From Spironucleus salmonicida (lineage: Eukaryota): a stretch of 64,000 nucleotides of DNA. Each line of letters starts with the position of its first letter. Within the stretch, counting starts at the first letter, position 1. Location of the stretch: contig NC_090598.1 in the NCBI RefSeq assembly GCF_000497125.1, positions 310,001-374,000 of the forward strand, written 5' to 3'. The notes under the pieces were generated by a model. The model had not been told where the DNA came from, made no database searches, and worked only from the letters and a program-made list of their open reading frames with translations. Positions 2,597 through 62,882 of this stretch are shown piece after piece. Position numbers and translations under genes: made by a program.

Positions 2597-2613
2597 ATGA
2601 TAGTACTGGGGCC

Positions 2614-9784: not shown

Positions 9785-10066
9785 ATGAATAGACTAAAGC
9801 CACTACAAATAAAACCAACATCAAGACAAAATTCGTTAACAACCAGGTCATAATCGACAGCCTGCTTGCCTACAATTAGATCTAAACTATAACAAGTACA
9901 TTACAGTCATGATGCTCCACCATTGCACCTAAAACAGATAAATTCACTAGACTCTTTTGAGCTGCAGCTCTAAGGTGCATTTAATAGCAAAAAACTTAAG
10001 TATAAGACACCTCTAGAGCGTCTACGCGGTGAAATTAAGCACATACAGAAAGAAACCGAAAAGTGA
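9785..10066 (+). CDS. Hypothetical basic protein, 93 aa
   Basis: MNRLKPLQIKPTSRQ...KETEK*; ends AAG TGA; C-rich sequence upstream. Confidence 0.6.
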
Positions 10067-10077
10067 ATAAAATACTC

Positions 10078-11022
10078 TCACTAGCACGTATTCACGATCT
10101 GAACCACCTCATCACCAGCTTATACACACCCACCTTTAACGATCTACCAGCGCTCACAAACATTCATTTCATAAATAACATATACTCCTTGACAGAAACA
10201 CCCAATTTCTTGACCAGCTGCGTAAAAATCGCTCTCAGTAAATTAGACGCCCCGAACACCTTGGACAAATACCACAAAAGCGTTGCGGCCTTTCCAATCT
10301 CCATGAACTACAAATCGTGAATTATCACAAACGATTCTAGGAAGCTTTCCGATGGTGTTTTTGTTCAACGGGAACCACCCTTTCACAATTTCAAGTACAC
10401 GCGAAAAGACGAAATTGAACGGTGCGACGACCTGCTGGCTGTTAGCGCTGGACAGTTGGAAGTAGCAGTAGCCGTACTTACTGTTTTTGGTATTCGCGCA
10501 CCCTGTAACGGTCTCAAAGGTGTTCTAGAGTCCTACTTCGGCCTTTACCATTTCACTGGCAGAAAAATCTCCGAAAAATGCTTGCGAGCAATCCACAGGG
10601 CAGTAAATGCTGTTAATTTGTGACTCAGCGCGCACCAAAATACCGTCAATTTGCACGAAATGCCGCTAGTTTGCGATTGGGCGTTTATGAAAATCCTGCA
10701 AACTTAAATAGGTGGAATTAGACGTGGCATGCGAGTTGGCGCGTTTTTAGATGTATTTTATTATCAAATGCTGCGTGAAAAGGAAATTGAAAGGGCGGGA
10801 AACAAATCGATTGATCTAGTGTGCAATCAGGCTACGGGGTGAAAATATGAGCAGCGGTATAGAGAATGAGGAATAGTGGTTGGCTAGGAACGAAAAATAC
10901 GTTATAAATGACACTATAAGGGGCAGTGTGAATGCTAGTATAATGCTGTATTGAATTATGAGGATGAAAAATATCAAAAATGGGGCAATTAGGAGCAAAA
11001 ATATCGATGCGAGTTTGTGCAT
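10078..11022 (-). CDS. Phosphatidylserine decarboxylase-like membrane protein lacking the GS cleavage motif, 314 aa
   Basis: N-terminal TM helices; YLSLQDFHKRPI; GQEIGCFCQGVYVIYE (compare GQEMGRFKLGSTVI); GCVQAGDEV. Confidence 0.7.
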
Positions 11023-14288: not shown

Positions 14289-14717
14289 TCATTGTGATAT
14301 TTTTTCATTTTTATGATCAAAAAACTATTACAGTAAGGTTATAGCCTGCTATTCATAAGTAGTATCTTACTGCCAATTCAGCTTTTAATCTTAAATACCT
14401 TTCAAACTGCAAATTCCACCAAATTTGTCATTTTTTGCAGCGAAGATAACTTTCTAAATCCCTGCCTATGCAAGAGCTGCCGCACACATTATGCAAGGTT
14501 CTACTGTAGTGTAGCAAATTACGTTAGATAGATTCGCATATTTTTCGTTTTATAGTTACTCAATCATATATAGACATTTAATTTCAGCGTGTAGAATAGA
14601 CGAGAATGAATCATTATACGCTGTTGCTAAAACTATTCCATCACACATCATCGCGCAGCCTATTGGGACATGCTTCTCCACAAGTGCGATTCTGGCTACT
14701 TCCATAGCCCTCTCCAT
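14289..14717 (-). CDS. ADAT2: tRNA-specific adenosine deaminase (Tad2/ADAT2), 142 aa
   Basis: VPIGC, HAE, TVEPCIMC and NDKFGG motifs. Confidence 0.85.
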
Positions 14718-14744
14718 TTTAATTAAAAATTATATAATTCCCAA

Positions 14745-17405
14745 TCACTATTACGCTTTTTTCATGCTCTCCTTTCTCCTCTGTACCTTGACCTCGATAA
14801 CCTGCTCCTCGACATCGTCAATTTGCATCTGGCATTATCTCACCCTCTCGAGCCCCAAGAAGCTTTGGAACCCCTTTAAACCGACCCCACGAACGGCCTC
14901 AGTTGCGATTTAAACGCTCCCAGCCAAGCTACGGAGCCCGTTTTTGAACTATGCATCGGTCACGCCATTAAACCTCTAAACAAACACCTAAACGCTCTAA
15001 ATCAGAGCCTGCAGGTCGCTGCCGGAGCCTTTTCGCAACATGTCCCCAAAAACACCAGCGAGCTCTGCAGCGCAATCCTCGCCGATTTGGGCCCACAAAC
15101 TCGCCTATTTCGAATCGCGAGCAATCATCAGAATACACTTCTCCACAACATCGAAAACACCCATTTTGCACGCTGCCTGGATGCAGAAAATAGGCTGCTT
15201 CTCGTAGTTTTGGACCACGAAATCGCGATTTACGCCCGTAAGAACTCCCTAAATCCGGCCGAATTTCCGCTCGAAAACGACGATTCCGAAGCTCGTCGCC
15301 ACGTAAATAAAGCGCTGATTTGTACTGATTTTGATGGAAATCACGCGCGCTTCAAGTTTGCGCTGCTCAATTTGCTGGATTGGATCGAAAAATCGACGCG
15401 TTTTGAGGTCGATTTTCTGTGTCAAATTGATCAAATTCCGCTCGTCTGCAGTGACCTGCGGCAGTTTGTGCGTCCGTAGTTGCTCAGAAACGCTATCAGA
15501 ATCGATGTTTTCGAAGTCCAAATTGATCGAAATTTAGAGCTTTTGAACCATTGTGAGAACCTTCCCATTCGAAATGTTATAAATTAAGAGATATTTCGAG
15601 TAGCCGCCGAGAATTAGCAGGTCTCCTTATATTGCTAGTGAAGTTATTTGAGTAGATTTGTGATTTTTGTTGATTATTCCCTACCTGAGTAGCGTTGCAG
15701 CATTGATATGGTTGATTTGGGTTGCGGATTCAACATCAAATACGCTTATACAGCCATTTGCCAGGAACACTGCTACCTGAGTATTCTCCATGAATGCGAA
15801 ACCGAGTATTTCGTGTGTTTCATCAAGGGTGGAAATCGGCTTTCCTGAAGAGAATGTATCCATGATTCTCAACGTTTTGTCCCAGGATGTCGAATATAGC
15901 TCACCGTTACCGGTTGGGTTGAATTTAAGCTATGAGATCGGTCCTGTATGATACTTGCATGAATCAATTAGAAGAGATGTTCTAAGATCGAAAATGTTTA
16001 CGTTAAACTGTTGGTCAGAAGCTGCAATTATTTCGCCACTGGGATCGACAGAAACGTGGTCAAATGAGTTATTCTCAGTTTTAAATGTCCTAAAAATAAT
16101 GTTTTTCTTTAAATCATAGCAAATAACTGAGTCAATGCCAGCACTTACAAGAGCTTTGCTGGATTTAAAGAATTAAATATCTCTGACATCACCATTATGT
16201 GCTTGGAAGCGAGTTTGAACTTAGTTTTTAAAAATGTCAAATATGATAATCTCACCGTTAATTTAACCAATAGCAATAAATCTATTATCTGGAGAGATAT
16301 CAAAGGCCTGCATATTTATAGCAGTTTGATCATTTGTTTCCAATACTTGTGTCTGGAAATTATATATTTTAACTGTTTTCTCGTATTTACTTGACATGGC
16401 GACATATTAATTATTATAAGATAAAATAGATGTAATTGGATAAGGAGAAAGTGAAACTGTATGATTGATTTCGCTATCAACTATATAGTAGTAATGACCA
16501 TTTGATAAGCCTAACGATAATGCCTTTTTAGATGAGTTATAATGAGATGTAGTAACTATTGGATTTGGTTATTAATCTTCTTCAAAAATATTTTACTATG
16601 ATTTTAAGTAAAAAGAAACAAAGGGATGTTAGTTGTCTTCTAATATGAATCCAGGCTCCCAATATTATATATTACCAGATTGAAGTGTAACTATCAAGTT
16701 AAAATTAGCAAATTCCCCAGAAGAGTACTTATCATTAATTAATTCAAATTCTTCTGGAATTAAAGTTTATAACTTTAACTTTGATAAATAACTTAAAACA
16801 TCAAATGATTCGTTATTAGGCTATAAGTGAACATCCCGAATTGGATCAGGAGACTAAATAATAAATGGATGTCTTTCAAACATTTAGAATAATAATCTTT
16901 ACTCTTATAATGATTAAATTCGACTATCTAAATAAAATTAAACAGGTTATATTTAAATGTTAGACTTATTAGAAGCTACAATAAAGTTATTATCCATTGA
17001 AAATTTGACTGAAGAAGGTTTGAACGGAAGAAGGAACTGATATATTTAATTTTAATTACTAGAATTTAAAATAATTATTGTGTTACCAGAGTTATACATA
17101 AAGAATTAACCATCATCCGAAAATTAAATTGACTAGATATTAACCACTCTTTTTGTAAATACAGGTAAATAGTTCCTATTATAAAAAGTAATGGTCTAAC
17201 GGGAGTCTAATATACAGATAAATTCTTTTGATACTCCAAACTAGACTATATTGAATAAAGACTCAAATGGAAGTACTTGTGAAGAATTGCTCTTTACTGT
17301 ATATGTCTTTAAGTAATTATAAGCAGAAGAATATACAATACCTTCTAATTCTACAATACCAGCATCTGTATTAGCAGAAGCAAGTACATCTTAAAACTAG
17401 AACAT
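14745..17405 (-). CDS. PWP2: Periodic tryptophan protein 2 (Utp1), WD40 SSU processome factor, 886 aa
   Basis: FRTF..ENNSFDHVSVDPSGEII...HTGPISQLKFNP...STSWDKTLRIMDTF matches PWP2; N-terminal VLPFESLFNI. Confidence 0.9.
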
Positions 17406-19172: not shown

Positions 19173-21950
19173 TCACCTCTTTTTAGCAATAGTCCTCTGT
19201 TTTTCTGCATCCTCCACAATATCTTCCACAATCAGGCCTTTTTTCATCAATATATCAACTACAACTAATTCTGCTTCAGACTAATGTTTACCTTAAACTC
19301 CCCATTCTACCTCGTCATCTTCTCCTATTAGGCCTCTTCTGGGATCTTCTTCAAGTAAAATATCTTCAATTCCCAAAAATTCGACTTCGGCCTGGCCAGA
19401 GGCGGCTGAGCGCATTTCTCTAGGAAAAACAAGCCCAAACCTAACCGGAATAAATGCTTAAATTTAAACTGTCTTTTAAGTAAAATTATTAAAATTAATT
19501 TACTTAGCATTAAATTTTTAAAGAACTTGTAACGAACTTTACTAAACATTAAGAGGAGTTGAAATTACTGTTATAAGATGGGGCTCAGATATACGTAAAT
19601 TTGACTATGTGATAGTACATCTGATGAAGTATGATATTGAGGCCAACGAAGACGTAATTGAAGGTCTTAATGTCAAAAAATAATTTGAGAACTATGAAGA
19701 AATAATTTAGTATAGGTCTGTTGGGTTATCATAATTAGATGTCAACATTTCCTACTTATTAAGACTAATAAAAATAGATAGATTTTCTATTTATTCTAAA
19801 CAAAGTGGGCCAGAATTGATGTTTGATATAAAAGCATGTTTTATTATAAGTTACCAAAGATTATCTAAATTTTAGGACATAAACAACTTATTATTATATT
19901 TATCCTCATAAATGATGTCGAAATTGGCAATAGAACTATTGTTTTGCACCGTTGGAAGCACAAACGCTTCTAAATTATATTTTATAGCAGTAAATTCAGT
20001 ATTTAACTCATTTTTCATAATTAATAATTCTAATCCTTATATATGAATGTCATTTTTCAACTGATTTTAGCTTTATAACCCAAGGTATTCATAGTACAGC
20101 GGCATATAATCTAAATAGTTTGAAATCACAGGAATGTTCTTAACAAAAACCTATCGTTTTAATGCATTAGTATCATCTGAAAAAATACTCTAATAAACAA
20201 AATTTTAATTCTCAAGCAAAGTCTCCGTTAACTTTGGATATTTTTTCAAATAGTTATTCTTTTGCGCATTGACAGGGACCTCCTTTATTTTAAATGTGGA
20301 GTCACTTATCACAAATCTAATATTTTCGGCCAATTTGGTAATATTTTCAATACATAAATCTAAGTGTACATCTCCACAAACACTCAGCTAAAGCTCACCC
20401 TGTGATGAGATCTAAAACGAACAGCTATTATCATATTTAGCAAAATATGCCAAAACCTCGCTAAGTTTACCAAATTCTGAAAAAAGTTCAGTGAATAAAG
20501 TGACAGTGATTAATGGCTTCTAGTATTTTAAAATATTAAAATTTATTTATCTAACTTTTTCTCCAATTACTTATATTTGATCAGCATTGATCTCTACAAC
20601 CTATCTGCGTCCCTTTAACATCAATTTAGCTGAAATACTAAAATCACCTAAACCATCCCCGTCAACTTCCGCTTCTTCGTCATAAACTTAATACAAAATG
20701 CTGTTATTACACAACTAAACATCTGTTCCAATAACGATTAAGCAGCCGCTAGAATAGCAATTTGTTTATGTAATTCTTACATATTTACCAAATGGTTAAT
20801 ATATATTATTAATTTATACCAGCTCCCCCTTTTCAGTGTAAAATTTCCTGTCTAGTTAGAGCTATAAATTATCGTTTTTTACGACTCGAACAATTGCTAA
20901 GAAATTATCAGTTACATCTTTTGAATTAATTTAAAGTTTATCGAGTTATTTTAACCCAGCTAAAATCGAATCAATTTCTGTGATTTAATACAACTTTTAG
21001 ATGTATAAATTTGGCTTGCATATATTATTTTATATTATTTGATCAAATACAACCTGACTTAAAGCAAAAATTGTCTACAAAAGCCACATTGGAAGGTCTG
21101 TTTGCTACATAATTTGCGGTGGGCTTAAGTTGAGCTTTTGAACCAATTTGAGTGTTTTCTTGGGCTTTTTATACGCATTTTCAATTATTTCTAGTACATA
21201 TGTCATGAGACAGCGGCCTGAACCTTGCTTAATTCCAGTTTCCGTCAAAATTGTGTTTGGGAGAGCAATTTTTTAAATCAGCGCTTCAAGTTGAATAGAG
21301 CCAAGTTATGGGGCAAGTTTTTAGACAATTTTAGCTGCTTCATAACAGTCGAAACCCCACTTATCGATACCGCTGCAGATAATGACATTTTTAGCGAAAT
21401 CGAAGTATTCAGTACCTAATTCTTAGTTCACTTCTGCGATGACTTCTAAAATTCTATCAAAAACAGCTACTGACGACATTTAAAGCTCACAAAATAATCT
21501 GTCTGTTTTATTTAGCCCAAGTATTATATTGATATTGAGCTATTTCAGCATTTTCATGATTGCCCGTGTTTGGGAGGAGACCGATTCTACAATATCTACG
21601 AGGAGTAGAGCTGAATCTGAGAGGGCAAGCGCCTAAAGAACCTCCGACTGGAAATCACAATGACCGGGTGAGTCGAAAAGATGGAAAAGGGCCGGATATG
21701 GTTTTTCGAAGCGTTTGGAGACTGAGACCAATGACACTGCTGAGGATTTCATTGTAATGCATCGTTGTTATTCAAGAGGAAGGAAGTCCAAGGTGCGCAG
21801 CTCGCCTGCTTGCTGGTGATTGACTAGGTCATTTGAGGCTAGGAGGGAATCTGAAAGTGATGTTTTGCCGTGATCAATATGGGCACAAATTGTAAAATTG
21901 AAAATACGGTCTGAGTGCCCTTAAAGTTTTTAAATAAGATCTAATGTCAT
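19173..21950 (-). CDS. EFL1: Elongation factor-like GTPase 1 (Ria1/EFL1), 925 aa
   Basis: AHIDHGKTSLSDSLL, RCITMKSS, DSPGHCDF, NKTDRL; C-terminal EDAEKQRTIAKKR typical of EFL1. Confidence 0.92.
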
Positions 21951-29880: not shown

Positions 29881-30362
29881 TGCATTTCGTGTCTTTTGAC
29901 CATTTTCATAGTAGGTAAACCTTAAACTGTATGTAGAATTAGAATATTATTCCAAATTCTAATTATTAATTAGAATAATATTTGTCATAGATATTTAAAT
30001 TAATATTTAATGAATACGTAAACAATTCATAATAATGGCTAGATTTTTACAGGTTCTCATTATTTATTTAATTAGATAGTACTTTTATTGTAAGCTTCTT
30101 TTAATCTTTATGATCATTATATAAACAATGTTAATATAAATAAATCCGCGTATTTCTCTATAATTGACCATATCAATAGATTAATTAATTAACAACCAAA
30201 AACTATAATTATTCGATATTTTTGAATTATAAGTTGGTGCATATAACATAGTAAACTATTAATATACTTAGATATATAATTTAAAATAAAATAAAACATT
30301 TAAAAATGATATTAATATATTATAGAATGTGATGTTAAATTAATTATTAAAAAAGTATTCGC

Positions 30363-32840: not shown

Positions 32841-33449
32841 ATGCTTCTAGCGACTTCCTTTATTTTTTCAAACACCTACGCCACATTAGACTTTCTAAAA
32901 CAGGAAATCGACCCACTAGTCTTTCCTTCGTCGTTTTTTCTGCAAACACACGCTCCGCATTATACGATTTCTCGCCCACAAGGCCCGGCATGCCACCCTG
33001 ATTCGTACTCTGACGAGCAAATTGACGCCCTCACGCCGCCTGAAAAAGCTGCTCGCATACGCCACAATTTCATCTATGACAGCACCGGAACGCGCAAGTA
33101 TCCGGTTTAAGACAACCATTTCAAGTACCAGCTAAAAGACATGAAAACAGATTCTAAATACAAAAAGTTCCGTGGAAGCTGCTTTATCACTTTAATTGCA
33201 GATGATTTTTTTCACGTGAACCATCTCGTTGTGAAAATGGAATTTCTGCCTCTCCTTGCGCCTGCAAAAGCGGCAGATTTGGAGGTCGAATTGCTCGTAA
33301 ATTTGATGAATCCGAGCTACGATTTTGCTGCTGAAAAAGGAATTTTTGAAGGGCGCGAAATGGCGTGCACGAAATGGTAGAAAATTGCGGGGAAAGGTGC
33401 AGAGTTTCTATGGGAAATTGATGAGGAAGGGTGGGTGACCGAAGATTGA
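32841..33449 (+). CDS. Hypothetical protein, possibly secreted, 202 aa
   Basis: Track ORFs 32841..33110 and 33141..33380 join through TAA/TAG into one frame ending TGA 33447. Confidence 0.8.
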
Positions 33450-33640
33450 GAATTGTATTTAAAATTGTATAATAATATATAAAATTTTCGATAATTGGAA
33501 GGGACAAATTAAGATATATTAAATATTACAATATGAAATTCAATATATATATATTTAAATAATTGTAAAAATAAAAATACTATTATTGCTTATTTTAGTA
33601 TGGTAATTGTTTCTTTTTTGCGTTCAATTTAGTTTATAAA

Positions 33641-35767: not shown

Positions 35768-35796
35768 TTTTGTACTAGATTATCATATCTATATTT

Positions 35797-36834: not shown

Positions 36835-36893
36835 TTTCAGATAATTATATATGGATATAATATTTATATATATATTATTTCTACAAAATTTAA

Positions 36894-39173
<2,280 letters not shown>

Positions 39174-39190
39174 AGCCCCAGTACTATCAT

Positions 39191-39610
39191 TCATTTTAGC
39201 TCAACTGTCAGCGGAATGCATACATAGTTCTTGTTATACCTGCATATGTGCTTGAAGTCCAGCATGAAAACTCCATAATTATCATTGTCCACATTCTAGA
39301 AGAAGTGCCTGAATGCTATCGGGTGCTTCTTGAACAGTTCCTCGTAAACATCAGCATAGTCTTACCTACTTAATTTTTGAACCTCTGCATTTATTCTGTA
39401 CATATTCTTCACCCTCCACAGGCTGCCGTAGTTGGCTGTAATATTTTAGTTAATATCTAACGCATCCCATTTGTTTGAATCGACACCGGTTGCCATAACA
39501 TAAGCATTTGCAGTAGCCGAGTAAAAAAGTGTCATCCACAAAACTCTAGGATATCCATTAGTTTCGTAAGAAAATAGTACCGGTGTGTTGTCTTTGAAGG
39601 GGAGCTCCAT
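39191..39610 (-). CDS. Pyridoxamine 5'-phosphate oxidase-like FMN-binding protein, copy B, 139 aa
   Basis: Duplicate of 2177..2596 with one V/A difference. Confidence 0.7.
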
Positions 39611-40424
39611 TTATAATTATACTTTGAAGATGGGAAATTGATATTACCATAAATCTAAAGGTTAGTAGTCGTTGAAAATCGAAAAATTTGAAATTATGGC
39701 ATTCGGAACAAAAATTTGTTATAACCTAGATAATGGATTTTTGTAGCGACCCATATAAATTGATTATTTAAACAATAAATTACATGGTTAGTTGCATAAC
39801 TTTGAAGGTTAAGACAATCTTTCAATATAAATAATAAAAAAGATATAACTACGCATGTAATAGCTATTGAGTATACCTGATCAGATTTTTGTAAATTTAC
39901 CTAGATTAAAATCTTTTAATTAATAATTTATAAAAATATAATGGTCATAAATTCATAAAATCTGTACTGATAAATTTTTAATATCATTAATATTACGCAA
40001 TATAAAAGTTAATAAATACTATTCAAGCTTTAATGGACTGTAGGATTGTACTTATTTAGTATATAAGTGTAATTTAGAAAATATAAGCCTTATATCAAGT
40101 AGTTTCGATTAAAATAATCAATTAACTAAAAAATAATCGATATCATTTTTACTATGAAGTAAATATAACTATAATAATTTTGAAAATATTCATTAATTAT
40201 TAGATTATTTATAATTATTGATAACAATTTTTACTTCAATAACTCGTTCAATAATATTATTAAATTCTATATTAGTGATATTCACTTTATACATATCTAT
40301 AGTCTTTAATTTTATTCAGCTTGGCTAGAAAAAGGAATTATATTTAATATTAAAAGGCCCAATACTATTGAGATTCAAGTTAAAATTTAATTTTTGATCT
40401 AAAATGTGTCAAAATATGATTCAT

Positions 40425-41285
<861 letters not shown>

Positions 41286-41614
41286 TTTAGGAAGTAGTTT
41301 CTAAAGACTAATAAAACTCAGAATACAATATTTTTATAAGGTTAAGACTTAATATTAAAAAATATAGATTATCTAAAAACGAGATAAGTATATAATTCAA
41401 TTAATAAATTTATTTAAAAACTTTTTTAATAACTCCTGGAAATATTTTAATTTTCAGGTTTATACTTGTAACTATTTTTAAATATTATAACATAATATAC
41501 CATTAATTTATTTTTGTAATCTTCCCTTTCAGAGATTGTTTGCTTATTCTTATTCCAGGCTGAAAACGACCTTATCTTACAACATCTTAACCAAAAACTG
41601 ACTGATAATTTCAC

Positions 41615-44476
41615 TCACTCAACCTTACTGTACCAGGCTACAAATGCTTTAAATTAGTATTGCAACCTATGCACTTGCAGATACTGCAATAATTCATGTT
41701 ATATTTCTTGTAAGTCGCCTTCAGTTTGGAACGAGAAAACAAACTTGCGACCCTACCAAAGCCGCTGGTCTGCTACTAAATCGCGCTTTCCACCAGCCCA
41801 ATTCCGTAAAGAATTAAGGTAAAAATTATCGGCTATTTCGAGAGAATTAAGCAAGTTATTCTGCTTAAATGACCGCTGCTCTTTCACTTTCTAATTCATT
41901 AAATTCAAGCATTTTGCCTTTAAATCAAAATCCTGCTTATTCATTATTATATCTGAAACAAGTGAAATACGATACAATTTTTTCCACTTCTTCAAACTGT
42001 GAATTATTGAAAATTTGTTATATTTAACTTCTACAATTCTTATTAGCGTTAAATGATTTCGCCAATTTTGCAAAATTTGAGCCAAAATGATCGGATTTGC
42101 GATTTTTTGAGCCAGAAAAGTACGATTTTTCCACTCAAAAAACACGTTCAAAGCGAAATTGAATTGCGTTTTTCGCTCCTAAATAAATTTTGCCTTTTGC
42201 AATTTTTAGCTCTTTTAACGCACAAATTGGAACGTTTTGGCCAGCTTTTTAGACTCAAAATCGAACTGGTAACTCGCGATCAGCGAGGCCTCGTAAAACG
42301 ACTATTTTAGCGCTTTGAAGGCCCGAAAACGCAGTTTTTGCTCGTACGATTTCGTCGTTTTTAGCACTGAATTTTCGGCTTAAACGGCGTTTGAAAGGCT
42401 CAAAAGTGCGATTTTCGGCAGCTAATTTTGCTCGTAAAACTCCTATTTCCACCAGTTTTGGGCCGCTTTTGCGAAGAGTTTTTTGAGCAATTTCCGCTTT
42501 CGCAGTTCGGTCGACAGCGCCTCAAAAGTGGTCCTTTGCACCTTCCCAGCGATTCTGTGGCTTAAGAGATTTCCCTTTTCGCGCGATTCCCTGAAAATCG
42601 TTGTTAGGGCGTTCCAGTTCAAATAAAAGGGTTTTACGAGAGTTATTTCTTGAAGAAGTGATATAATGACGGTGAAATTAGAGTTTCGGCGCTTTTCTGC
42701 ATCGATTAGGCGCTTCCAGTGCTAAATTTGCCTTCTCATGATAATCAGTTTGAAAAATCTGTCAGCTTTTACCTGCTGGGTGGTTGTCAAGAGCTGCTTT
42801 GACAGTTAAAATAGCGTTTTGAAGTATTTTTAGCATATTATGGTCGTTTAAAAAGTTGAAATAATGTTCTGACTGCATAGTTTTTGCACCTGTGTGGCCT
42901 TACCAAACCTGCTGATATATCTTTTTAGAAGGTTTCGTTAGGAATAGTCAGTTTCGATTCGGATATAATATTGCTATTTTAGATGCTTTGAGTACCAATT
43001 GTGGAAGCATTATGCAGTTATGTACAATTTGCTACGGATAGTTACTGCATCTTAAATATCAGATCTTTCAATTTGGCGTTACAAGTCCGATGGCAAATTT
43101 TCTAAATCTAAAATTGATCTTTCATGATTGATATAAAACAATTTGTTCGAACATGAAAGAAGCAATTTGTGCTCTTTGATTTACTAAAGATATTATTTTG
43201 TATTAAATTAAACCAATTTTGTATCTATTTTATTTGTAGTTTATGATATTTTTACTGCAGGTACTTGAAAAATTGAAAGTCTGCTTTATACGAGCAAATT
43301 AGAAATTGAATTCGGATACTTTTAACTATGCAAAATAATTTATGAAAATTTGAATTTGTTAGTTAAAGGAATGAAAAATGAAAATAATTTAGTCTGATAT
43401 TAAGTATATAAACCTTTATAGTAATTAATATCCCTATAAAAATCTTAATCTTCAATAGGATGAGAATTTGCTGATTCGATGAATTTAATATCTGTTTTAT
43501 TATTTAATGTACTTCCCAATAGCTTAGTTCTTAGCATCATTTTTCTATTTATTTTATTTTTAAGATGAGTAAAATTTAAACACAACAGCTATTAAATATA
43601 GAAATTATCGGCACAATTTTCGATTTATTTTTCGTTAAATGCAAGATACATAAAATTGAAAAGAAACTGCATATATTTACCATTACATATTTATACGGCA
43701 ATTTCATTATTATTTAGATTGTTTGATACTGTATTTTTCCATTAATAAAATATATTAGAACTACCTCTATTTTGTATGGTTTTTATCTAATTAATTTTAT
43801 AAATATGTCTTAAAAGAAGAAAAACGTTTGCATATTATATTTCAATATTACTTATATTAAGAGCATTGATAAGTTTTTTCTTTAGTCTTTATATTTTGAA
43901 ATTGGATTTAATAATTGTTAAAAGCAATTAATTTTATCTTTATTTTATCATTTATTTGTTGATTTCCATATTTTAACTTTTAAGTACAATCAATCTGCTT
44001 ACTATTATTAAAATAGACTCTTTAAACTTTAAAGTAGTTGAGTTAATAATCTAGTTAATAGCATTAATACGCTAAGCATTAAATAAGTGATTTCTATTGA
44101 TTAAATGTTAAAATTATCTGTAAAATTTCTTATATTATAAATTTTATGGAATTTTTGGCTTTATAAGCAGTAGTAATTCGGACTCAGGAATAATTTTTTA
44201 TATAATTTTAGAAGCTTAAGGAAGCTCAACGTCTGGCTTATCAGTAACCGATAAATTTTACTCTCTAGCAGTATTTTATGAGTGAATTTTAATTTTAAGA
44301 GGATTAGTTATATCTAGATCACCTAATAATAATTTCTTGCTTGCGACCCTTTTAATAGCTCTTCTTGGTTCTGGAGCGGGTAAAGGTGGTGGAGACTAAG
44401 CCATTTCCTATAATGCTTTTTATCTATCTAGTTTTCTTTGGAGCCTTTTAGATTAAATTTATTCTAAATCCTGCAT
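41615..44476 (-). CDS. Sfi1-like centrin-binding repeat protein, 953 aa
   Basis: Repeated Trp motifs: CFHNWYSK, ADRFFKLIIMRRQIQHWKR, FFEWKNR, LQNWRNH, LKKWKKL, AFVAWYSK. Confidence 0.75.
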
Positions 44477-44525
44477 TTTTGCTAAAAATTATATGATATA
44501 TTATTATATAATTTACTTATCAAAG

Positions 44526-45104
44526 TCACTTTTTATTGTGGTGGAAAATATAAAAACCAAGTGCATCTACTAATATTAAAGCACCACTTATACTCCATAG
44601 AGTTATGTTTACCAATTTTTCTACTTTTTTCATATGAGATACTAATTTATTTGCTTATCCTGTATTTTATACAATATTCGTAGTAGTCCCAGAAATACCT
44701 CTCATCTATTAGTTTTATTAACCTAGTACGTTAACTACATCAGTAGCAATAGTATTTGCTTCATCCATCATTTGATCAGTATCATTAAGGTACATATTAG
44801 CCTCTGCTAAATTTTTATTCTATCCATATTTAGGTTAACTAACCGTTTAAGCATTAACAAGTTATTCTAACTCTTACAATTCGGTGTTTAACTTTCGTAG
44901 TGCACTTTAAGAGTTAGTATACTCTTGTCCTTTAAGTTTGGATATATAGCTTGAAGCATTCACAAAAGTCTATCTTGCTTATGTTGTTATATTTTTAGCC
45001 TATGGTATACCATTCACACCTTTTTATATGCTGATTTTAGCCTACCTTACAGAATTCTAAACTTCCTATGCAAGATCTAAAAATTAATCATACTATTCAG
45101 ACAT
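44526..45104 (-). CDS. Qb-SNARE, Vti1-like, 192 aa
   Basis: Helical N-terminal domain; SNARE motif EANTIATDVVNVLGQQNQQMRGI; C-terminal TM. Confidence 0.8.
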
Positions 45105-48200: not shown

Positions 48201-49412
48201 ATAGCACAGAAAATCTCTACAGCTTTTATTAATTCTTAGGAAGTTTAATTCAGTTAATTTATCTTATAATAAGCTATTTTCTAACCAGTAGTCAATGAAA
48301 ATTAATAAGCTGGGTCATTGGGACGTATTTTTGAAACAAATACATAAACTACCTAAATTTTATACTCTATTATTTCCAAAGAATTATAAGCAATTCTGAG
48401 AGCTCTATTGCGCTTTTCACCAGGAGCTCGACCTCCTGCAGAAGCAATAAGAAAAGATCCTATTTTTACAGCAATTCAAGAAACTTAAAAATTAAAAATT
48501 GTTAAATGGAATAATGCTATTAATATGATGAAAGCTGCTAAAATGCAAAAAGAAAAGAAAGTAATAGTCAACGCATGGGAAAATCCCAAATCATATGAAA
48601 GAGGTGTAGTTTAGTAAGAGGTTGGTGTTAAAATTAACAAAAAATTAATTTAAATGGAAGATTAATTTGAAGCTGAGATAGCCTCATTCTAGAAAATGCA
48701 CGAAAGCGTACTATTAGACTTAGACGAGAGTTAGTTCATCATGGAAGACTATAAGTTAAAATCTGTTAAACATGAGGAAATATCAGTAAAAGAGCAATCA
48801 GATTTTGAAGAAAGTAATGATTAGATAGAAATGTTCATGAATAAAGATGACTTTTAACAAATGTATGATTACGAGCTTAGTGACGACATCAAATTCGTTG
48901 GATCAGGCACCGTTTCAGAGGATAGTTGCGATAGTGTTGTTAGTATTAAATTTTAGAAAACTGAGGAAGAAAAATAAGCGGAATACAAAGCATATTAATA
49001 GTAGCACAAGGCCAAAGAACATGCTTTACTTCAAAAAGAAACAGATGAAATCAAACAGCAAATGGAAGAGCTTGATTTAGAGAAATAAATCCCCGAAGAT
49101 GACGATATTGAGAAAGAGGCTGCAATTTACGAGCACGAATAAGAAGAAAAAGTAGAGAATGAAAACGTGTATTATGACGACTAAGGAAATGCACATTATT
49201 ACGATTAGGAGTAATAATAACCCGAAATTTATGAACAACCCAAGGAGATGCATTAGGATCCTTATGCCACAAATTATAACTAGTACTAACAATACGGTTA
49301 AGACACCCAAAAGCAGGAATACGATCCTTACGGCGAATATGCTTACGAATAGCAACCAGCTGATCAGAATGGTCATAACGATTCCAACACCTTTGACCCG
49401 TTCGCGATGTGA
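45234..49412 (+). CDS. Large protein: beta-propeller-like N-terminus, helical region, pseudokinase domain, acidic Tyr/Gln tail, 1392 aa
   Basis: VHGKITPHNVFL (no HRD Asp), no DFG, WEAPE, TDLWSLGMI, ALLRFSPGARP; tail with DPY, DPY, DPF. Confidence 0.8.
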
Positions 49413-49423
49413 AAAACGTAACT

Positions 49424-50314
49424 TCACTTTACTAACTAGATGTCTTTTGACTCTTTTGGCTCCTGTGGAAGCTGCTTCGAACTGAACTGTAATTTTGAGA
49501 TCAGACCCTCTAGTTCCTCGTCTACTTCTTCCTAGTACTAGTTTCGTTCCAATTTTTATTGATATTCAATCTCGCAGACGTCGAATTCGACTAGCTAGAC
49601 AAGCGAATCTTCCTTCAGATCTAACCACCTGTAGTCGATTATTTCAGTTTTTCCATATAAATAATACAGTCCGTGCACGTTACCTAAGAAGTCAGTAGCC
49701 TTGACGTAAAGTTGAATGAGTGTCAACAGCCAAACTGGTCCTATAACGATCAAATCCTCGAACCCCATGCACATTAACTGCTATATAATTCTTGTTGGTA
49801 GCGTTTTTGAGATGACATTCTTAGTCTAACATGTATTTGTGCAGAGCACCTTCAGCCTATTGGATTTAGCAGAATACTTATCTGCGTAGATAAGATTATC
49901 AGGGGAATGACACGAAATCATATGATAATAGCTGCCTCCGTTTACCTTATCAAAGTAGAATGCCAGAGAAGTTGATAGCTCGTGTGAGATCACAACTGAT
50001 TAACTATTAAATTTCGGAGGATCAATACTGATCACTTGGGGGATAAATTGATAGTCTATAGCTAGCTTATTATGTTCCTGTGATTTTAAAAATATTTTAA
50101 CTCTGTGCGCTTGAGAATTAACAACAAATGAGAATACACCGTCAAAGTATAATAATGATCCTACTTTTAACTAAGTCCCAGTTTCAAGAACTATTGAAAA
50201 TATATCATATCTCAGTCTACGTATTTCATATATAATACACCCCTACTGGTGTTCCTCCGTGTGTAATACGGTTGAAATTCCAGTCGTAGGGTTCTCACCA
50301 CACCCGCAGCCCAT
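49424..50314 (-). CDS. MGCGC-initiated protein with possible degenerate FNR-like fold, 296 aa
   Basis: MGCGC N-terminus; IYEIRRLRYDIFSIVL..LKVG, SCHSPDNLIYAD, LIVIGP; ends AAG TGA. Confidence 0.65.
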
Positions 50315-50395: not shown

Positions 50396-51082
50396 TCACT
50401 TAAGTGTGTTTTAAGCCTCATTTTCAAAGACTGAGATAGTATCAAAAACACCTTATACGGTGAAAATAGGATCTTTGGCCTTCGCTGTTGCGGCAGTTAA
50501 AATGAAGCCATAAACTCCATCTTAGCATAAGTTAAACAAGTCACCAACATCAGCTCTAGTAGGAGCTGTACCAAATGACATAGTCTAGAATATTTCACCA
50601 GAAACGAAGATTGTCTTACCTTTGAGAGCCTTAATGCTCTTTTTAACGCATCCTGGAACTTCCCATCTTTCGATACCGGTGCTCATCAAGAACTCTCTAT
50701 CAATCAAAACAGACTACTGAGCGGGAATTTAAGTTCTGTCATAAATTGCAATATCACCGTTTTCTGAGATAAATTCAACATTTAAACTATGTTGTTTAAG
50801 CTAATTGGTTTTGATTGCAGAGTTAGTAAGAACTAAAATCTTTAATGAAGATTTCTCTTTGATCATGGAGTATGTTTTCTTGATATCTTCCAATGATGCT
50901 TCCGTACCATTAATGAAGAAACCTGTTAATTACTAAGTCGCATTAAGAGATTCAATTATATCATGGGTTGCAGGGCAAGGTAACTCAGCATAAATTTAAT
51001 GAGTTTTGATAGATTATATTGGAGTTGCCATCATGTTTGCATTATCTTTATAAGGGATGCTATTTGGCGTCTTGTTGTTCAT
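50396..51082 (-). CDS. Truncated pyruvate kinase barrel-like protein, 228 aa
   Basis: GKTIFVSGEIFQTM...APTRADVGDLFNLCQDGVYGFILTAATAKAKDP parallels pyruvate kinase [46 protein letters not shown]. Confidence 0.8.
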
Positions 51083-53282: not shown

Positions 53283-53861
53283 ATGATTATCAAGCCAATT
53301 AATCCAGCAGACTGTCTTCCTGAGCTCTAAGTTAACATCCCCTAGCAGTTCATAAACAACCAACATCAGTAATACCCCGAATTCTTTACGGATTTCTTTA
53401 AAACATCAGGTCACGATTTGTCATCTTTCCCTCAAGATTGCCGTGCAGATACCCTGCTGAAAATGCATTTTCCAGGCTAAATCGGAGCCCCAGAAGAGCG
53501 TTTTGTGCAGCTGCTGAATTTTGCAACAAATTTCTACAAGGAACTGATCCAATCAACGCAGAAGATGGGTGAAACGACAAACAAGCATTTTCACTTTTTG
53601 CTGGGTACGGCCCACGCCAAGCAGCTCAGATACACGATCGCCAACGATCCCGAAGCCAGAATGCGCATGCTCGAATTTGGAGCAGAAACTTTGCGTTATT
53701 TGGGAAGCGACTTCAGTGAATTTGAAGCGAAAATTCAAATTGTGCACTAAATTGCAGTTCATGTCGCAATTTTGAGAAGTGAAATGACCGAGTTTCAGGA
53801 CTTCTAGGATTTTGATGAAGCAGACCCGTTTGTGAGACTCTTTGCGGTTTGCCAGGAATGA
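53283..53861 (+). CDS. Hypothetical protein, 192 aa
   Basis: MIIKPINPADCLPEL...FAVCQE*; contains track ORF 53505..53750. Confidence 0.8.
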
Positions 53862-60357: not shown

Positions 60358-60717
60358 TTTATATCAAAGGAAGGAAACAAGTGTAGACATATAATATATG
60401 GTTATAGGGTAAATATTATACTTTATAGAAGCTGCATGAAGTATATTTTTATTATATTATATAGATTACCAAATCGTAGAGTTAGATTTATTTTAATTGG
60501 TCTACAAAAAATACACATTCACGTAATATAACAATATACCTTATTTAGTATTAAAAGTAGTGTACAATAATATATTTAATAATAATTTTTCTAGTTTTTA
60601 TTAAATTAGTATATTAATTAGAGGGTAGAGTTTAATTCATTAAATGATTATTATATCCGTTAGATCCTTTAATTAATTATGAGAAAATCCTATTAAAAAC
60701 CTTATAATACATGATTT

Positions 60718-61905
60718 TCACTTCCTACCAAATTTGGCCAGAGCCTCAATAGCCAAAATGGCCTTAGGATCCGTAATTTCCTTATTTTTTCGTCTTTCCA
60801 TTAACTAATTTTTTTGTCTATAATAAGCTACAATTTTTTCGCTAACTTAAACGCGATACGCAAAGGTCTTTCCATCAATTTTAACATCCGCAACGTCCCC
60901 AATTTCCTCAAATTCGTCCCCTGCCTACCGTGCGGCCTCTTAGCAAATACACTCTGAGTCCTCTGTCTGTGTCACCGCATTAATAGATACGCTCTACCCA
61001 GGAAACATATGAACCTACATTTACTGCTGAACAGCAACCTAATTCCGCTAAACCTCGTCCATACTGAGCTACCTGCGCCCGGTTGAAGTACGCGGAATCT
61101 GCGTGATAATCGATCTGGGCTGCGGCTTCTCGCCATCGTCTATGGCCTTGCGCCAACGGTGAAATTTTGTCTCAAAGTTCTACACGTGAAATCGTGTCAG
61201 TTTTAGGAATGTGCCGGGCAGAATTCCCGTTGTATAAAGCTTCACCACCTCATCAAAATCACGTACGTGCGATTCCGGACCCTCCGTAAACTTCATAGCC
61301 GCAATGTCGATAATGGTGAATTTGTCGCCAGTTTGCAGGAAAAGCAGCCCGCCTGAGCAGCACAGGAATTCGGATTAGAGCGGTAGCGGAGGACCCTAGA
61401 TTAGCCTAGAGTCCTGGAGCTGAATTTAGCACACCGCGTGCGGTGTCCAGAGCAGCGCAGAGCGCATGAAACCGAAAATTCGGACGCCCTAAAAGACGCT
61501 TTCCGCGGCCCGAAACTGGAAATCTGGCATCCTGCCAATGAACAATTTTTCGGCCAAAACTGCTATTCCAGAGCCTATTGGTGCGATTTTTCCGTACGTG
61601 TCCTGCTCCTAAACGACTTTCAGCGGAAGCTGGCAAATTGCGATAACGCCCGTTTCGGTGAACTCGTAGAGGTGATTTAAGACTTGTCCAATGACCTTAC
61701 CGTCAATGTAGTATGTGACGTAGCGATATGCTGGCGCAAATAGGCCTTAATTAGCAATATGAGGGAAGTTGGGTAGTGGGGTTTGCGAAATTATCTCAAA
61801 GAGCTCGTTCGTTTGGAAAAGCGTGTTATCTGAGTAAAATAAGAATGAATTGAAGTAGGGGTTGCTGAATAGGCGGTATTGTGGATCGAGTACTTAGTTT
61901 TGCAT
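60718..61905 (-). CDS. Hypothetical protein, 395 aa
   Basis: Fully translated open frame MQNQVLDPQY...AKFGRK*; ends AAG TGA. Confidence 0.8.
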
Positions 61906-61967
61906 TATTTAGAAGTGATTATTTAACGAATATGTATTTAAGTATATAATAATTATTATAAATTATT

Positions 61968-62882
61968 TCACTTGTATTTAGCAAATGTCTCTGTAATTTC
62001 AAGAATATCATAGTTATTTGCAAATGCTTCAATTTCAAATCTTAATTTATACGAAAAATTAGGAAATTCAATATAATTTTCTTATTTCTGAGGCTATAAT
62101 GCTATAACTGGTGATTTCACAAGTTGCTTTACATTTATATTGAGAGTAGGCACACTAGATGAAATAGATTTTTACTAGTTGCCTAGTAATTCAGAGTAAT
62201 TAACATTATCATTTTTAATTTCTTTAGGAAATATTAAGAGTCGTTCTTAAAATTATGGATTTGATGCAAGAAAAGGATCTATAATTGGTTACTGAATTTA
62301 AGACTATTATTAAGTTGTCTAGAAGTTTCCTTATGACGGCCCAAATATCTGTTTTTATTATGGATTTTAATTTTATCCAAAAATACTTTATTATTGTTAG
62401 GGTTATTGCTAAACAACATTATTTTATGGTAAGCTCCATGTACTACCTAATTAATTCTTCTATAAAGCTTGTTAAACTAAGTAGTCATTCAAGGAAAGAC
62501 CACTCTAGTTATAAACATTTACTGTCATTTTTATTATTTTAATTATATTAATAATATATGATAAACAAATTAATTTTACTTTTTTAATTTTCATCGCCTA
62601 AATGTCACTTTCTATAATTGCCACACGTTTCTCCAAATGTTTAGACAGTTTTGATATTCTTACTTCAGCTTTTTCTAAAATTTCGCTTTGATACTATATT
62701 TACTGCATAATAATATTAAAAACAGTTTCTTGTTTCTAATTCTGCTATTCAAATTTTATATTTAGGGTTTACATTTAATTAATAAAGGGTTCAAGTTAGA
62801 CTTAGTCTTAGTTTTTGTTTATACTTCTAAATTGAACTTCTGGCTACTAAGAAAATTGCACTTTTTGTGAGAAGGGGTTCAT
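61968..62882 (-). CDS. Continuous ORF, 304 aa, possibly two genes: coiled coil (62882-~62570) and Gln-rich xFG protein (62528-61968)
   Basis: ATG 62882 and ATG 62528 are in frame, joined by a promoter-like AT-rich linker; ends AAG TGA. Confidence 0.6.

What the first reader, a model, noticed from the sequence alone, without database searches (positions are those of the whole stretch)
60720..61920. Islands flip from C-rich to G-rich on the + strand regardless of gene orientation (origin-like skew switch)
Seen: left flanks are C-rich and right flanks G-rich on the + strand. Examples: 60890 CAACGTCCCCAATTTCCTCAAATTCGTCCCCTGCCTACC versus 61760 GAGGGAAGTTGGGTAGTGGGG (minus-strand gene); 32870 AACACCTACGCCAC versus 33420 GATGAGGAAGGGTGGGTG (plus-strand gene). 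The same holds at 9800/10900, 14780/15700, 41600/42780 and 53350/53800; it is weaker in the first island. In PWP2 and the Sfi1-like gene the flip lies inside the gene. Established: a C-to-G skew switch marks bidirectional replication initiation in many genomes, and strand-asymmetric repair at break hotspots can produce similar flips. Inference: the islands are fixed replication origins or recombination hotspots with GC-biased conversion.
Basis: partly seen in the sequence, partly recalled or inferred. Interest (0 to 1): 0.7.

Follow-up and report, generated by a model that had tools for sequence, protein, structure and literature searches.

The report
Skew flip across GC-rich patches
In this AT-rich protist genome, kilobase-sized GC-rich patches carry extra C on their left edge and extra G on their right edge, even at silent sites, so whatever builds the patches works outward from their centres, though the sequence alone cannot say whether that is DNA repair, replication or transcription.

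Summary
The window is nuclear DNA of a diplomonad that reads TAA and TAG as glutamine, most likely Spironucleus salmonicida or a close relative. GC-rich patches with high GC3 are already described as unexplained in that species.

The C-to-G flip is real. At silent sites (third codon positions plus intergenic bases) within island +-300 bp, the + strand skew goes from -0.18 to +0.17. All 10 informative islands flip the same way, and 0 of 3000 random placements reach the pooled value. The flip holds in twofold and fourfold codon classes. It holds inside single ORFs and in intergenic flanks. It fades within about 600 bp.

Two cautions apply:
- "Regardless of gene orientation" carries no information, because a C-to-G flip is unchanged by reverse complementation.
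- Part of the all-site signal is a protein-level gradient present in every gene, including G-rich last 180 nt.

Best reading, at about 40%: localized GC-biased recombination repair that starts inside the patch and resolves asymmetrically between strands. Replication origins get about 20%. They share the sign of known origin skews, but the skew here is too short-range and the patches lie inside transcribed ORFs. The skew flip itself appears in none of the diplomonad papers I opened.

The parts
60826..61801 (.). Focal GC-rich island (48.8% GC against about 26-30% in its neighbours)
   Evidence: GC threshold; silent-site left G48/C81 versus right G92/C60, d = +0.47, p < 0.001.
60700..61000 (+). 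C-rich left shoulder of the focal island. It is the G-rich 3' end of the minus-strand ORF.
   Evidence: C/G per 100 bp are 26/12, 23/10 and 35/15; coding-strand third-position skew is +0.39 to +0.42 in the last 450 nt.
61700..61900 (+). G-rich right shoulder of the focal island. It is the C-rich 5' end of the minus-strand ORF.
   Evidence: G/C are 30/14 and 31/9; in the first 150 nt of the ORF the skew is -0.52, -0.69 and -0.54 at codon positions 1, 2 and 3.
60718..61905 (-). ORF of 395 aa (18 in-frame TAA/TAG read as Q), an orphan protein. The island is essentially this one gene.
   Evidence: translation; no Pfam family; only 2 relatives among 1.84 billion representatives; one of them is a Spironucleus salmonicida hypothetical protein, 29% identity; dSkew +0.382 against +0.170 +- 0.047 expected from the amino-acid sequence alone (0 of 5000 synonymous shuffles reach it).
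60705..61887 (-). Continuous transcript contigs across the whole island, with a T-run before 60705 (the poly(A) of a minus-strand mRNA, 13 nt past the stop)
   Evidence: pieces 60710-61860 (X5), 60705-61876 (X6), 60786-61887 (X7), and the loose end at 60705.
32890..33381 (.). GC island equal to a 202-aa plus-strand ORF (32841-33449), with a C-to-G flip
   Evidence: skew -0.31 to +0.15; third positions -0.28 to +0.24, p = 0.014; synonymous shuffle p = 0.004.
14546..15971 (.). GC island over the 3' part of the WD40 (PWP2-like) ORF 14745-17405(-), with the flip at about 15302 inside the ORF
   Evidence: third positions -0.23 to +0.15, p = 0.003.
42192..42818 (.). The flip is at about 42599 and shows mainly at third positions.
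   Evidence: third-position dSkew +0.401 against +0.032 +- 0.110, p = 0.0002; p = 0.004. Pfam gave no family for this ORF.
9961..10882 (.). GC island with no long ORF that carries a coding signature. It has the strongest all-site flip.
   Evidence: skew -0.26 to +0.19; only short or TGA-interrupted frames; d = +0.51.
21211..21844 (.). GC island over the 5' GTPase domain of ORF 19173-21950(-)
   Evidence: GTP_EFTU; all sites -0.09 to +0.24; third-position d = +0.28, not significant.
53364..53791 (.). GC island equal to a 192-aa plus-strand ORF (53283-53861). The flip is weak.
   Evidence: d = +0.08 to +0.11, not significant; poly(A) at 53873.
49239..49907 (.). GC island across a convergent gene junction. 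The rise is weak.
   Evidence: skew -0.17 to -0.05; d = +0.16, not significant.
37499..39487 (.). GC-rich stretch over the MCM4 core and the convergent neighbour. Its left half is GC-rich only at codon positions 1 and 2. Its GC3-rich right part is the duplicated segment. It is the one exception when islands are defined on silent-site GC.
   Evidence: 38564-39578 has d = -0.12.

Best explanation
What is shown. The islands are roughly 0.5-1.5 kb patches in which AT has been replaced by GC at all kinds of sites. The replacement has a centre-out polarity: the strand that runs 5'->3' away from the patch centre gained more G, and its complement gained more C. The asymmetry is near zero in the core. 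It is largest on the shoulders, where G is still raised and C is already back at background.

What is inferred. This is the shape expected if many events start at scattered points inside the patch and each modifies a tract of a few hundred bases outward on one defined strand. I commit to localized recombination repair, either gene conversion between homologous copies or nick- or break-initiated repair. In that reading, mismatch correction in heteroduplex DNA, or error-prone re-synthesis of the resected strand, favours G:C, and it acts on only one of the two possible W/S mismatch configurations on each side of the initiation site. The same events would then produce both the GC enrichment and the skew flip.

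On top of this lies an ordinary protein-level gradient in all genes (C-rich codons near the N-terminus, G-rich codons in the last ~60 residues). That gradient inflates the flip seen by eye.
For: 1. The flip is at the nucleotide level, not the protein level.
- It appears in Y-ending twofold, R-ending twofold and fourfold codons separately (p = 0.006, 0.004, 0.002).
- It appears in intergenic flanks, -0.15 versus +0.29, p = 4e-4.
- It exceeds synonymous-shuffle expectation in 4 of 8 regions tested.

2. It is centred on islands, not on genes.
- Third positions of the single ORF holding each midpoint go from -0.160 to +0.165, p = 1.4e-10, rising in 9 of 11 ORFs. This includes islands at about 15%, 70% and 80% of gene length.
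- In a logistic model the island-position term remains after gene position is included (p = 4e-4 at third positions).
- The 20 non-island ORFs show no third-position gradient.

3. The geometry fits outward tracts.
- On the outward-running strand, 0-150 bp beyond the edge, G = 0.213 and C = 0.104 against a background of about 0.12 and 0.10. In the core both bases are raised.
- The effect fades by about 600 bp.
- The G centroid lies to the right of the C centroid in 10 of 12 islands, by 71 bp on average.

4. GC enrichment covers silent and apparently non-coding DNA, as a regional neutral process would.

5. Published work on S. salmonicida (passages read):
- GC3 and non-coding GC co-vary regionally and are unexplained (PMC1805757).
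- High GC3 is specific to this lineage compared with S. barkhanus (PMC2874811).
- Duplicated regions are 44.7% GC against 30.7% elsewhere (PMC9509377).

6. In this window a 1064-bp inverted duplicate at 98.8% identity overlaps GC3-rich DNA.

7. Strand-asymmetric outcomes that flip at a break are documented at human meiotic hotspots (PMC7615360, passages) and for mismatch resolution after a break (PMC9001825, abstract).
Against: - No recombination, break or heteroduplex was measured. The direction of substitution is inferred from composition only, with no outgroup.
- The sign does not follow the one direct precedent. At human hotspots the A>N and C>N changes fall on the single-stranded 3' overhang, which runs toward the break. 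With a central break that would make the left side G-rich, the opposite of what is seen here. My reading therefore needs a different source of asymmetry (mismatch type or fill-in synthesis), and for that the sign is not predictable.
- A and T are depleted about equally on the shoulders. A pure A-to-G process would not do that, although fourfold sites do show mainly a G-for-A trade.
- Only about 10 islands in 64 kb were available. Taken singly, 4 to 5 are significant. Sites are autocorrelated, so Fisher and likelihood-ratio p-values are optimistic.
- The ORF set is my own heuristic.
- No shared sequence motif was found in island cores.
Confidence: 0.4

Rival explanations
1. The islands are fixed or preferred replication initiation sites. 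Leading/lagging-strand mutational asymmetry makes the outward-running (nascent leading) strand G-rich, as in bacteria and as inferred for human CpG islands and yeast MCM sites.
For: - The sign matches the published precedents. The A->G/T->C ratio is below 1 on the 5' side and above 1 on the 3' side of human CpG islands, which are also GC-rich and show a gBGC signature (PMC2817419, passages).
- GC skew rises across about 5500 yeast MCM sites (PMC10945306, passages). That also removes the objection that one site per ~5 kb is too dense.
- The flip is symmetric and centred on the islands.
Against: - The skew is local and large (+-0.17 to 0.3 at silent sites). By 600-1000 bp from the edge it is down to -0.03/+0.07, not significant. 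A fork-polarity skew should hold across the half-replicon.
- The A/T partner skew is nearly absent.
- Replication does not explain the GC enrichment itself.
- The islands lie inside ORFs, and the focal one is spanned by a continuous polyadenylated mRNA. The yeast sites lie in intergenic nucleosome-free regions.
- There is no G-quadruplex motif anywhere in the window.
Confidence: 0.2
2. The flip is a gene-anchored compositional pattern. Proteins here start with residues that use C-rich codons and end with charged, G-rich-codon tails. The GC-rich patches merely make this visible. No centre-out DNA process is involved.
For: - Codon positions 1 and 2 rise from 5' to 3' equally in 11 island-overlapping and 20 non-island ORFs: position 1 from +0.18 to +0.46-0.47, position 2 from -0.37/-0.19 to about 0.
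- The last 180 nt of ORFs are G-rich in both groups (+0.28/+0.32 and +0.16/+0.29).
- Across 32 ORFs the 3' half exceeds the 5' half by +0.118, Wilcoxon p = 0.0026.
- Three islands coincide with whole short genes.
- In 4 of 8 regions the flip is no larger than the amino-acid sequence predicts.
Against: - Non-island ORFs show no gradient at third positions.
- The flip is present in each synonymous codon class and in intergenic flanks.
- It follows the island midpoint, not the gene midpoint, in islands that cover only part of a gene.
- It exceeds the amino-acid expectation in the focal gene, in 32841-33449, in the WD40 gene and in 41615-44566.
Confidence: 0.15
3. The cause is transcription-coupled mutational asymmetry from short divergent (sense plus antisense) transcription that starts inside the islands. 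That would leave an A-to-G excess on each non-template strand.
For: - The sign matches the known excess of A->G over T->C on the coding strand (as summarised in PMC2817419).
- The range of a few hundred bases fits short cryptic transcripts.
- Abundant antisense transcription in diplomonads is recalled from the literature, not checked here.
Against: - The skew reverses inside single ORFs that are transcribed in one direction.
- Transcript contigs cross the focal island without interruption, and its poly(A) end shows minus-strand sense.
- No data on antisense starts were available, because contigs carry no strand.
- GC-rich cores are unlike the AT-rich initiators described for diplomonads (recalled).
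Confidence: 0.1
4. The flip reflects selection on mRNA structure: a C-rich 5' end pairs with a G-rich 3' end.
For: The predicted fold of the focal mRNA has 54 pairs between its first and last 300 nt.
Against: - Shuffles within 30-nt blocks give the same result: MFE -342.9 against -345.6 +- 13.0, z = +0.2, and 56 +- 24 long-range pairs. There is no structure beyond what composition gives.
- The flip also occurs in an island with no convincing ORF and in intergenic flanks.
Confidence: 0.03

Closest known systems
G+C-rich regions with high-GC3s genes in Spironucleus salmonicida (Andersson et al. 2007, PMC1805757; Roxstrom-Lindquist et al. 2010, PMC2874811; Xu et al. 2022, PMC9509377)
   Same: The organism type, the genetic code and the phenomenon all match: short GC-rich segments in an AT-rich genome, with GC3 and non-coding GC raised together. 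The authors call it a 'peculiar phenomenon' that neither mutation nor selection easily explains. It is recent in this lineage, and GC is higher in duplicated DNA (passages read).
   Different: The word 'skew' occurs 0 times in these three papers and in the 2014 genome paper. The internal C-to-G polarity of the patches is therefore not described there. I did not read the full texts or supplements.
Bidirectional strand asymmetry originating at human CpG islands (Polak and Arndt 2009, PMC2817419)
   Same: These are GC-rich islands whose flanks show complementary asymmetry with the same sign (A->G/T->C below 1 on the 5' side, above 1 on the 3' side). A W-to-S (gBGC) signature is seen inside the islands.
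   Different: The human asymmetry is small (about 0.93 versus 1.09) and constant over hundreds of kb. Here it is large and gone within about 0.6 kb. The human islands are promoters, while these lie inside ORFs. The human result rests on polarised substitutions and mine on composition.
Strand-asymmetric mutagenesis flanking human meiotic DSB hotspots (Hinch et al. 2023, PMC7615360)
   Same: The asymmetry flips at the hotspot centre. It is absent in the central +-100 bp, peaks off-centre (700-800 bp), and is on a kilobase scale tied to resection. This is the same geometry as here.
   Different: There the A>N and C>N changes fall on the 3'-overhang strand. For a central break that predicts the opposite sign to the one seen here. 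The process there is net mutagenic, not a builder of GC-rich islands.
GC-skew rise across MCM-loading sites in S. cerevisiae (Foss et al. 2024, PMC10945306)
   Same: The rise in GC skew is short-range, runs 5'->3' on either strand, and occurs at thousands of closely spaced sites.
   Different: The yeast sites are intergenic, nucleosome-free and AT-rich, with ACS motifs, and the effect is described as subtle. Here the sites are GC-rich, mostly intragenic, and the effect is strong.

Membership tests
Eukaryotic replication origin / initiation zone | Initiation of DNA synthesis, or ORC/MCM loading, at the site | not testable with these tools
   No nascent-strand, fork-direction or ChIP data were available. 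The run contigs carry no such information.
Eukaryotic replication origin / initiation zone | Upward (C-to-G) switch of GC skew at the site on either strand | tested here: met
   The sign is as in PMC2817419 and PMC10945306.
Eukaryotic replication origin / initiation zone | Skew persists outward over the half-replicon and has a T>A partner | tested here: not met
   Third-position skew is -0.03/+0.07 at 601-1000 bp and -0.04/+0.05 at 1-2 kb, both not significant. AT skew changes only from +0.018 to -0.035 (p = 0.049, all sites) and is not significant at third positions.
Recombination hotspot with GC-biased gene conversion | GC raised at all site classes, including silent and non-coding sites, over a tract-sized region | tested here: met
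   Silent-site GC is 0.44-0.50 in islands against about 0.22 outside. Nine islands can be defined on silent sites alone. Sizes are 0.3-1.2 kb.
Recombination hotspot with GC-biased gene conversion | W-to-S excess in polarised substitutions, and W-to-S alleles at raised frequency | not testable with these tools
   No outgroup DNA, no population data and no whole genome were held. The DNA run contigs that were laid showed no usable variants.
Recombination hotspot with GC-biased gene conversion | Locally raised recombination, break or conversion activity | tested here: inconclusive
   Only indirect evidence. A 98.8%-identical 1064-bp inverted duplicate overlaps GC3-rich DNA. A GC-rich minisatellite lies 380 bp from one island. 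The published GC excess of duplicated regions points the same way.
Human-type DSB-hotspot strand asymmetry (ssDNA damage on the 3' overhang) | A>N and C>N changes on the strand that runs toward the break | tested here: not met
   If the break is central, G gain here lies on the strand running away from the centre, the opposite. This is an inference from composition.
Transcription-coupled strand asymmetry | One sign of skew along a transcription unit, set by the coding strand | tested here: not met
   The sign reverses inside single ORFs and inside one continuous mRNA.
Inverted-repeat or palindromic element | Left and right arms are reverse complements of each other | tested here: not met
   Only AT-rich arms of 12-35 nt at 71-93% identity were found in 60500-62100.

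The most novel reading that the evidence does not exclude
The long-unexplained GC-rich patches of the Spironucleus genome are footprints of fixed, kilobase-scale initiation sites of a bidirectional DNA transaction: conversion-type repair between the genome copies of this binucleate, putatively asexual cell, or replication initiation. The skew flip marks each initiation centre to within about 100 bp. The sequence would then give a genome-wide, base-resolution map of such sites in an organism where neither origins nor recombination have ever been mapped. It would also be a natural case in which GC-biased repair is visibly strand-asymmetric.
Probability: 0.4. Interest if true: 0.75.

Novelty: new variant of a known kind. 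Interest (0 to 1): 0.6.

Why it matters
The GC-rich, high-GC3 patches of S. salmonicida were flagged in 2007 as something neither mutation bias nor selection easily explains, and in 2010 as a recent feature of this lineage. An internal polarity narrows the possible causes. It excludes uniform regional mutation bias, codon selection and foreign origin. It calls for a process that starts inside each patch and proceeds outward on a defined strand.

Diplomonads have no mapped replication origins and no demonstrated meiosis, yet allelic heterozygosity is very low. A sequence signature that locates initiation sites of repair or replication would make both questions directly testable. It would also be a rare natural example in which GC-biased fixation and strand asymmetry can be separated at silent sites.

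The evidence here is one 64-kb window with about ten islands, so a genome-wide check comes first.

Tried and rejected
- **Whole genome.** None is held for this window, so every statistic is limited to 64 kb.
- **Bacterial code.** Table 11 gives only 10 ORFs of at least 100 aa. Code 6 opens the genes.
- **Palindrome or mobile element.** Neither explains the symmetry. There are no meaningful inverted repeats, and the islands do not resemble each other (self-BLAST).
- **G-quadruplex / OGRE-type elements.** There are 0 candidate motifs on either strand, although G3 and C3 runs follow the same asymmetry: left 21 G-runs/62 C-runs, right 47/28, p = 3e-6.
- **Shared motif in island cores.** No k-mer stood out.
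- **mRNA structure selection.** Nothing beyond composition.
- **Fourfold sites within islands only.** Same direction but not significant: -0.089 to +0.050, p = 0.19. Significance came only when the 300-bp shoulders were included.
- **Per-island sign test at third positions inside islands only.** 5 rise, 2 fall and 1 is flat among 8 with data. Not significant.
- **Sequencing runs.** No RNA holder was formally listed. Four runs guessed to be RNA held about half of the words. Their contigs have poly(A) ends, which is why I treat them as RNA. The DNA run X1 laid only short pieces and gave no variants or depth of use.
- **Function of the focal protein.** No Pfam family. Atlas hits were below 0.9 and structure TM was 0.50 or lower, hinting at a beta-propeller at most. 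These are leads only.
- **Earlier notes of this scan.** Nothing on this genome or on this phenomenon.
- **'DSBs in the flanking AT-rich spacers' model.** It would fit the sign of the human precedent, but I rejected it for the focal island because the neighbouring gene ends are not GC-enriched.
Full report
**What the window is**

Under the bacterial code only 10 ORFs of at least 100 aa exist. Reading TAA and TAG as glutamine (table 6) opens 117 ORFs of at least 150 aa. These include a WD40 beta-propeller protein of the UTP/PWP2 kind (14745-17405, minus), an EF-Tu-type GTPase (19173-21950, minus) and MCM4 (36807-39173, plus).

The best named, near-full-length match of MCM4 is Hexamita inflata, at 42% identity and 91% coverage. 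The only full-length relative of the focal ORF is a hypothetical protein of Spironucleus salmonicida. The window has 30.3% GC. It is therefore a diplomonad nuclear genome, most likely S. salmonicida or a very close relative. No whole genome was available, so everything below rests on 64 kb.

**Annotation used**

I chose non-overlapping ORFs greedily by length under code 6: 48 ORFs covering 87% of the window. I counted codon positions only for ORFs with a coding signature (position-1 skew > 0.05, position-2 skew < 0.05). That left 31-32 ORFs.

- ORFs at 1-1406, 1990-2586, 2614-3072, 9909-10418 and several AT-rich ones failed this filter, and their third positions were not counted.
- The long ORF 41615-44566 failed it too and was added by hand from then on.
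- The tandem repeat region (33400-35800) was excluded throughout.

This annotation is heuristic. Errors in it should dilute the signal, not create it.

**Checking the observation**

Thirteen islands pass a threshold on G+C alone. One is a 51-bp x 27 minisatellite without skew.

For the other 12, all sites:
- 9 of 12 rise from left to right and 3 do not.
- Pooled skew goes from -0.112 to +0.071.
- Across the window the flip score correlates with GC (r about 0.20; 0 of 2000 circular shifts reach it).
- Against random non-island placements the pooled flip is significant (p = 0.003), but no single island is extreme, and the focal one has p = 0.09.

Minima of cumulative G-C (C-to-G switches) number 15. 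Fourteen lie inside ORFs, and 8 lie where 400-bp GC is at least 0.40. Of the 16 maxima, one lies in such GC-rich DNA and most are in AT-rich spacers. Seven island midpoints fall within 140 bp of a minimum. By hand I expect about 0.8.

**A logical point**

A sequence that is C-rich and then G-rich reads the same way after reverse complementation. The pattern must therefore appear 'on the + strand regardless of gene orientation'. It is equally '5' C-rich, 3' G-rich on the coding strand' for a gene on either strand. Orientation independence cannot separate replication from gene-anchored causes.

**A gene-anchored component exists**

- In 32 ORFs the 3' half has higher skew than the 5' half by +0.118 (Wilcoxon p = 0.0026).
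- By quintile, position 1 rises from +0.18 to +0.46 and position 2 from about -0.28 to 0.00.
- The rise is the same in 11 island-overlapping and 20 non-island ORFs.
- The last 180 nt of ORFs are G-rich in both groups.

This is protein composition, and it accounts for part of the visible flip. In 4 of 8 regions tested, the flip is no larger than the amino-acid sequence predicts.

**An island-centred, silent-site component also exists**

- Third positions show a 5'-to-3' rise only in island-overlapping ORFs (-0.183 to +0.140, p = 1e-6). Non-island ORFs show none (+0.188 to +0.102).
- Synonymous-codon shuffles are exceeded in four regions: the focal gene (+0.382 against +0.170 +- 0.047; 0 of 5000), 32841-33449 (p = 0.004), the 3' part of 41615-44566 (p = 0.003) and the WD40 gene's island (p = 0.015).
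- A logistic model of G versus C at third positions keeps an island-position term after gene position is included (p = 4e-4), and the reverse also holds (p = 0.006). These p-values ignore autocorrelation.
- Using only third positions of the one ORF that contains each midpoint, coding-strand skew goes from -0.160 to +0.165 (p = 1.4e-10), rising in 9 of 11. One of the two exceptions has only 2 sites on one side.
- With the 300-bp shoulders included, silent sites give left G372/C531 and right G697/C498. All 10 islands with data on both sides rise. 0 of 3000 placements reach d = +0.343, and dropping any one island leaves d >= +0.31.
- Four other thresholds and a definition based on silent-site GC agree: 13 rising/0 falling, 8/1, 17/1 and 6/2, and 8 of 9.
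- The three synonymous codon classes each show the effect.

**Anatomy of the effect**

Outside the islands, within 300 bp of the edge:
- Third positions have skew -0.23 on the left and +0.33 on the right (p = 6e-9).
- Intergenic sites have -0.15 and +0.29 (p = 4e-4).
- At 301-600 bp the effect is weaker, and beyond that it is gone.

When the two sides are folded onto the strand that runs away from the centre:
- The core has G 0.25-0.27 and C 0.18-0.22.
- The first 150 bp outside the edge have G 0.213 and C 0.104, with background about 0.12 and 0.10.
- AT skew stays near zero.

At fourfold sites the outward side differs from the inward side by G +0.077, A -0.042, C -0.027 and T -0.007. G3 and C3 runs follow the same asymmetry, but there is no quadruplex motif.

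In the focal island the skew is on the edges, 60700-61000 and 61700-61900.

**The focal locus**

The island is one gene, a 395-aa orphan ORF on the minus strand. Transcript contigs from three runs cover 60705-61887 without a break. A T-run before 60705 marks the poly(A) tail of a minus-strand mRNA. The skew therefore reverses inside a single mRNA.

There is no inverted repeat. There is no RNA structure beyond what composition gives.

**Literature**

Passages were read through term searches, not whole papers. Supplements were not opened.

- Andersson et al. 2007 describe variable G+C along S. salmonicida contigs, with high GC3s genes in GC-rich regions. They state that neither mutational nor selection scenarios easily explain this.
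- The 2010 comparison finds that orthologues in S. barkhanus lack the extreme GC3.
- The 2022 assembly paper reports 44.7% GC in duplicated regions against 30.7% elsewhere.
- 'Skew' does not occur in these three papers or in the 2014 genome paper.
- A search for Giardia, GC skew and replication origin returned no diplomonad study among the 12 papers listed.

Precedents for flips at GC-rich or initiation sites are human CpG islands, human meiotic hotspots and yeast MCM sites.

**Mechanism**

Shown: a short-range, island-centred, silent-site asymmetry that is co-extensive with the GC enrichment.

Inferred: the same events cause both. They start at scattered points in the core and act outward on one strand. 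This explains zero skew in the core and a pure G gain on the outermost shoulder.

I rank the candidates as follows.
- **GC-biased recombination repair, about 0.4.** It explains the GC enrichment at all site classes, the kilobase scale, the recency and the published link with duplicated DNA. Its weakness is that the sign is opposite to the single-strand-damage asymmetry at human hotspots. It needs a mismatch-type or fill-in-synthesis asymmetry, which I cannot test.
- **Replication initiation, about 0.2.** It has the right sign by precedent. It does not explain the short range, the missing A/T partner, the GC enrichment or the position inside transcribed ORFs.
- **A purely gene-anchored reading, about 0.15.** It fails at silent and intergenic sites.
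- **Divergent cryptic transcription, about 0.1.** There was no evidence for or against beyond the continuous mRNA.

**Verdict**

The origin interpretation is not favoured. The hotspot alternative is the leading hypothesis but is unproven.

The GC-rich patches are known. Their internal polarity appears to be new. It is a useful mechanistic clue that needs a genome-wide and outgroup-polarised test.

Noticed in passing
window 33763-35203: A minisatellite of 27 copies of a 51-bp unit (93% matches, 49% GC, no GC skew). It is open in several frames, and one frame gives a 502-aa table-11 ORF of 17-residue repeats. It lies 380 bp from the GC island at 32890-33381.
   Followed up: partly
window 1852-2914 and 38873-39935: A 1064-bp inverted duplication at 98.8% identity, 36 kb apart. 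It copies the last ~300 nt of MCM4 plus the neighbouring 221-aa ORF. All 11 substitutions between the copies are W/S differences, and there are also 2 single-base indels. The segment is GC3-rich, and it is the one silent-GC island without a C-to-G flip.
   Followed up: partly
window 30349-31234 and 40411-41295: A pair of paralogous minus-strand genes at 72.7% nucleotide identity over about 890 bp. Both are AT-rich at third positions.
   Followed up: no
all ORFs, last ~180 nt before the stop: Coding strands are markedly G-rich (+0.16 to +0.32) at the 3' ends of ORFs, whether or not an island is present. The skew falls to zero right after the stop. This looks like charged C-terminal tails, but a role in 3'-end formation was not tested.
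   Followed up: partly
window 49426, 53873, 60705: Poly(A) or T-run loose ends of transcript contigs lie only 12-14 nt beyond the stop codons of three genes. The convergent genes 45234-49412(+) and 49424-50314(-) have transcripts that abut or overlap. This is consistent with the ultrashort 3' UTRs noted for diplomonads.
   Followed up: partly
window 10321-10839 (+): A frame with coding-like composition is interrupted by a single in-frame TGA at 10621-10623, inside the GC island that has no convincing ORF. It could be a pseudogene, a read-through or an unannotated gene.
   Followed up: no
window 50417-51072: Transcript contigs here have a word depth of about 1600, against 10-140 for neighbouring genes, yet GC is only about 0.34-0.36. 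In this window the highest apparent expression is therefore not where GC is highest. Contig depth is a poor measure of expression.
   Followed up: no
No Pfam family matched at E <= 0.01. The translation does show regularly spaced W-containing motifs that resemble Sfi1 repeats, but that resemblance is recalled from memory.
   Followed up: partly
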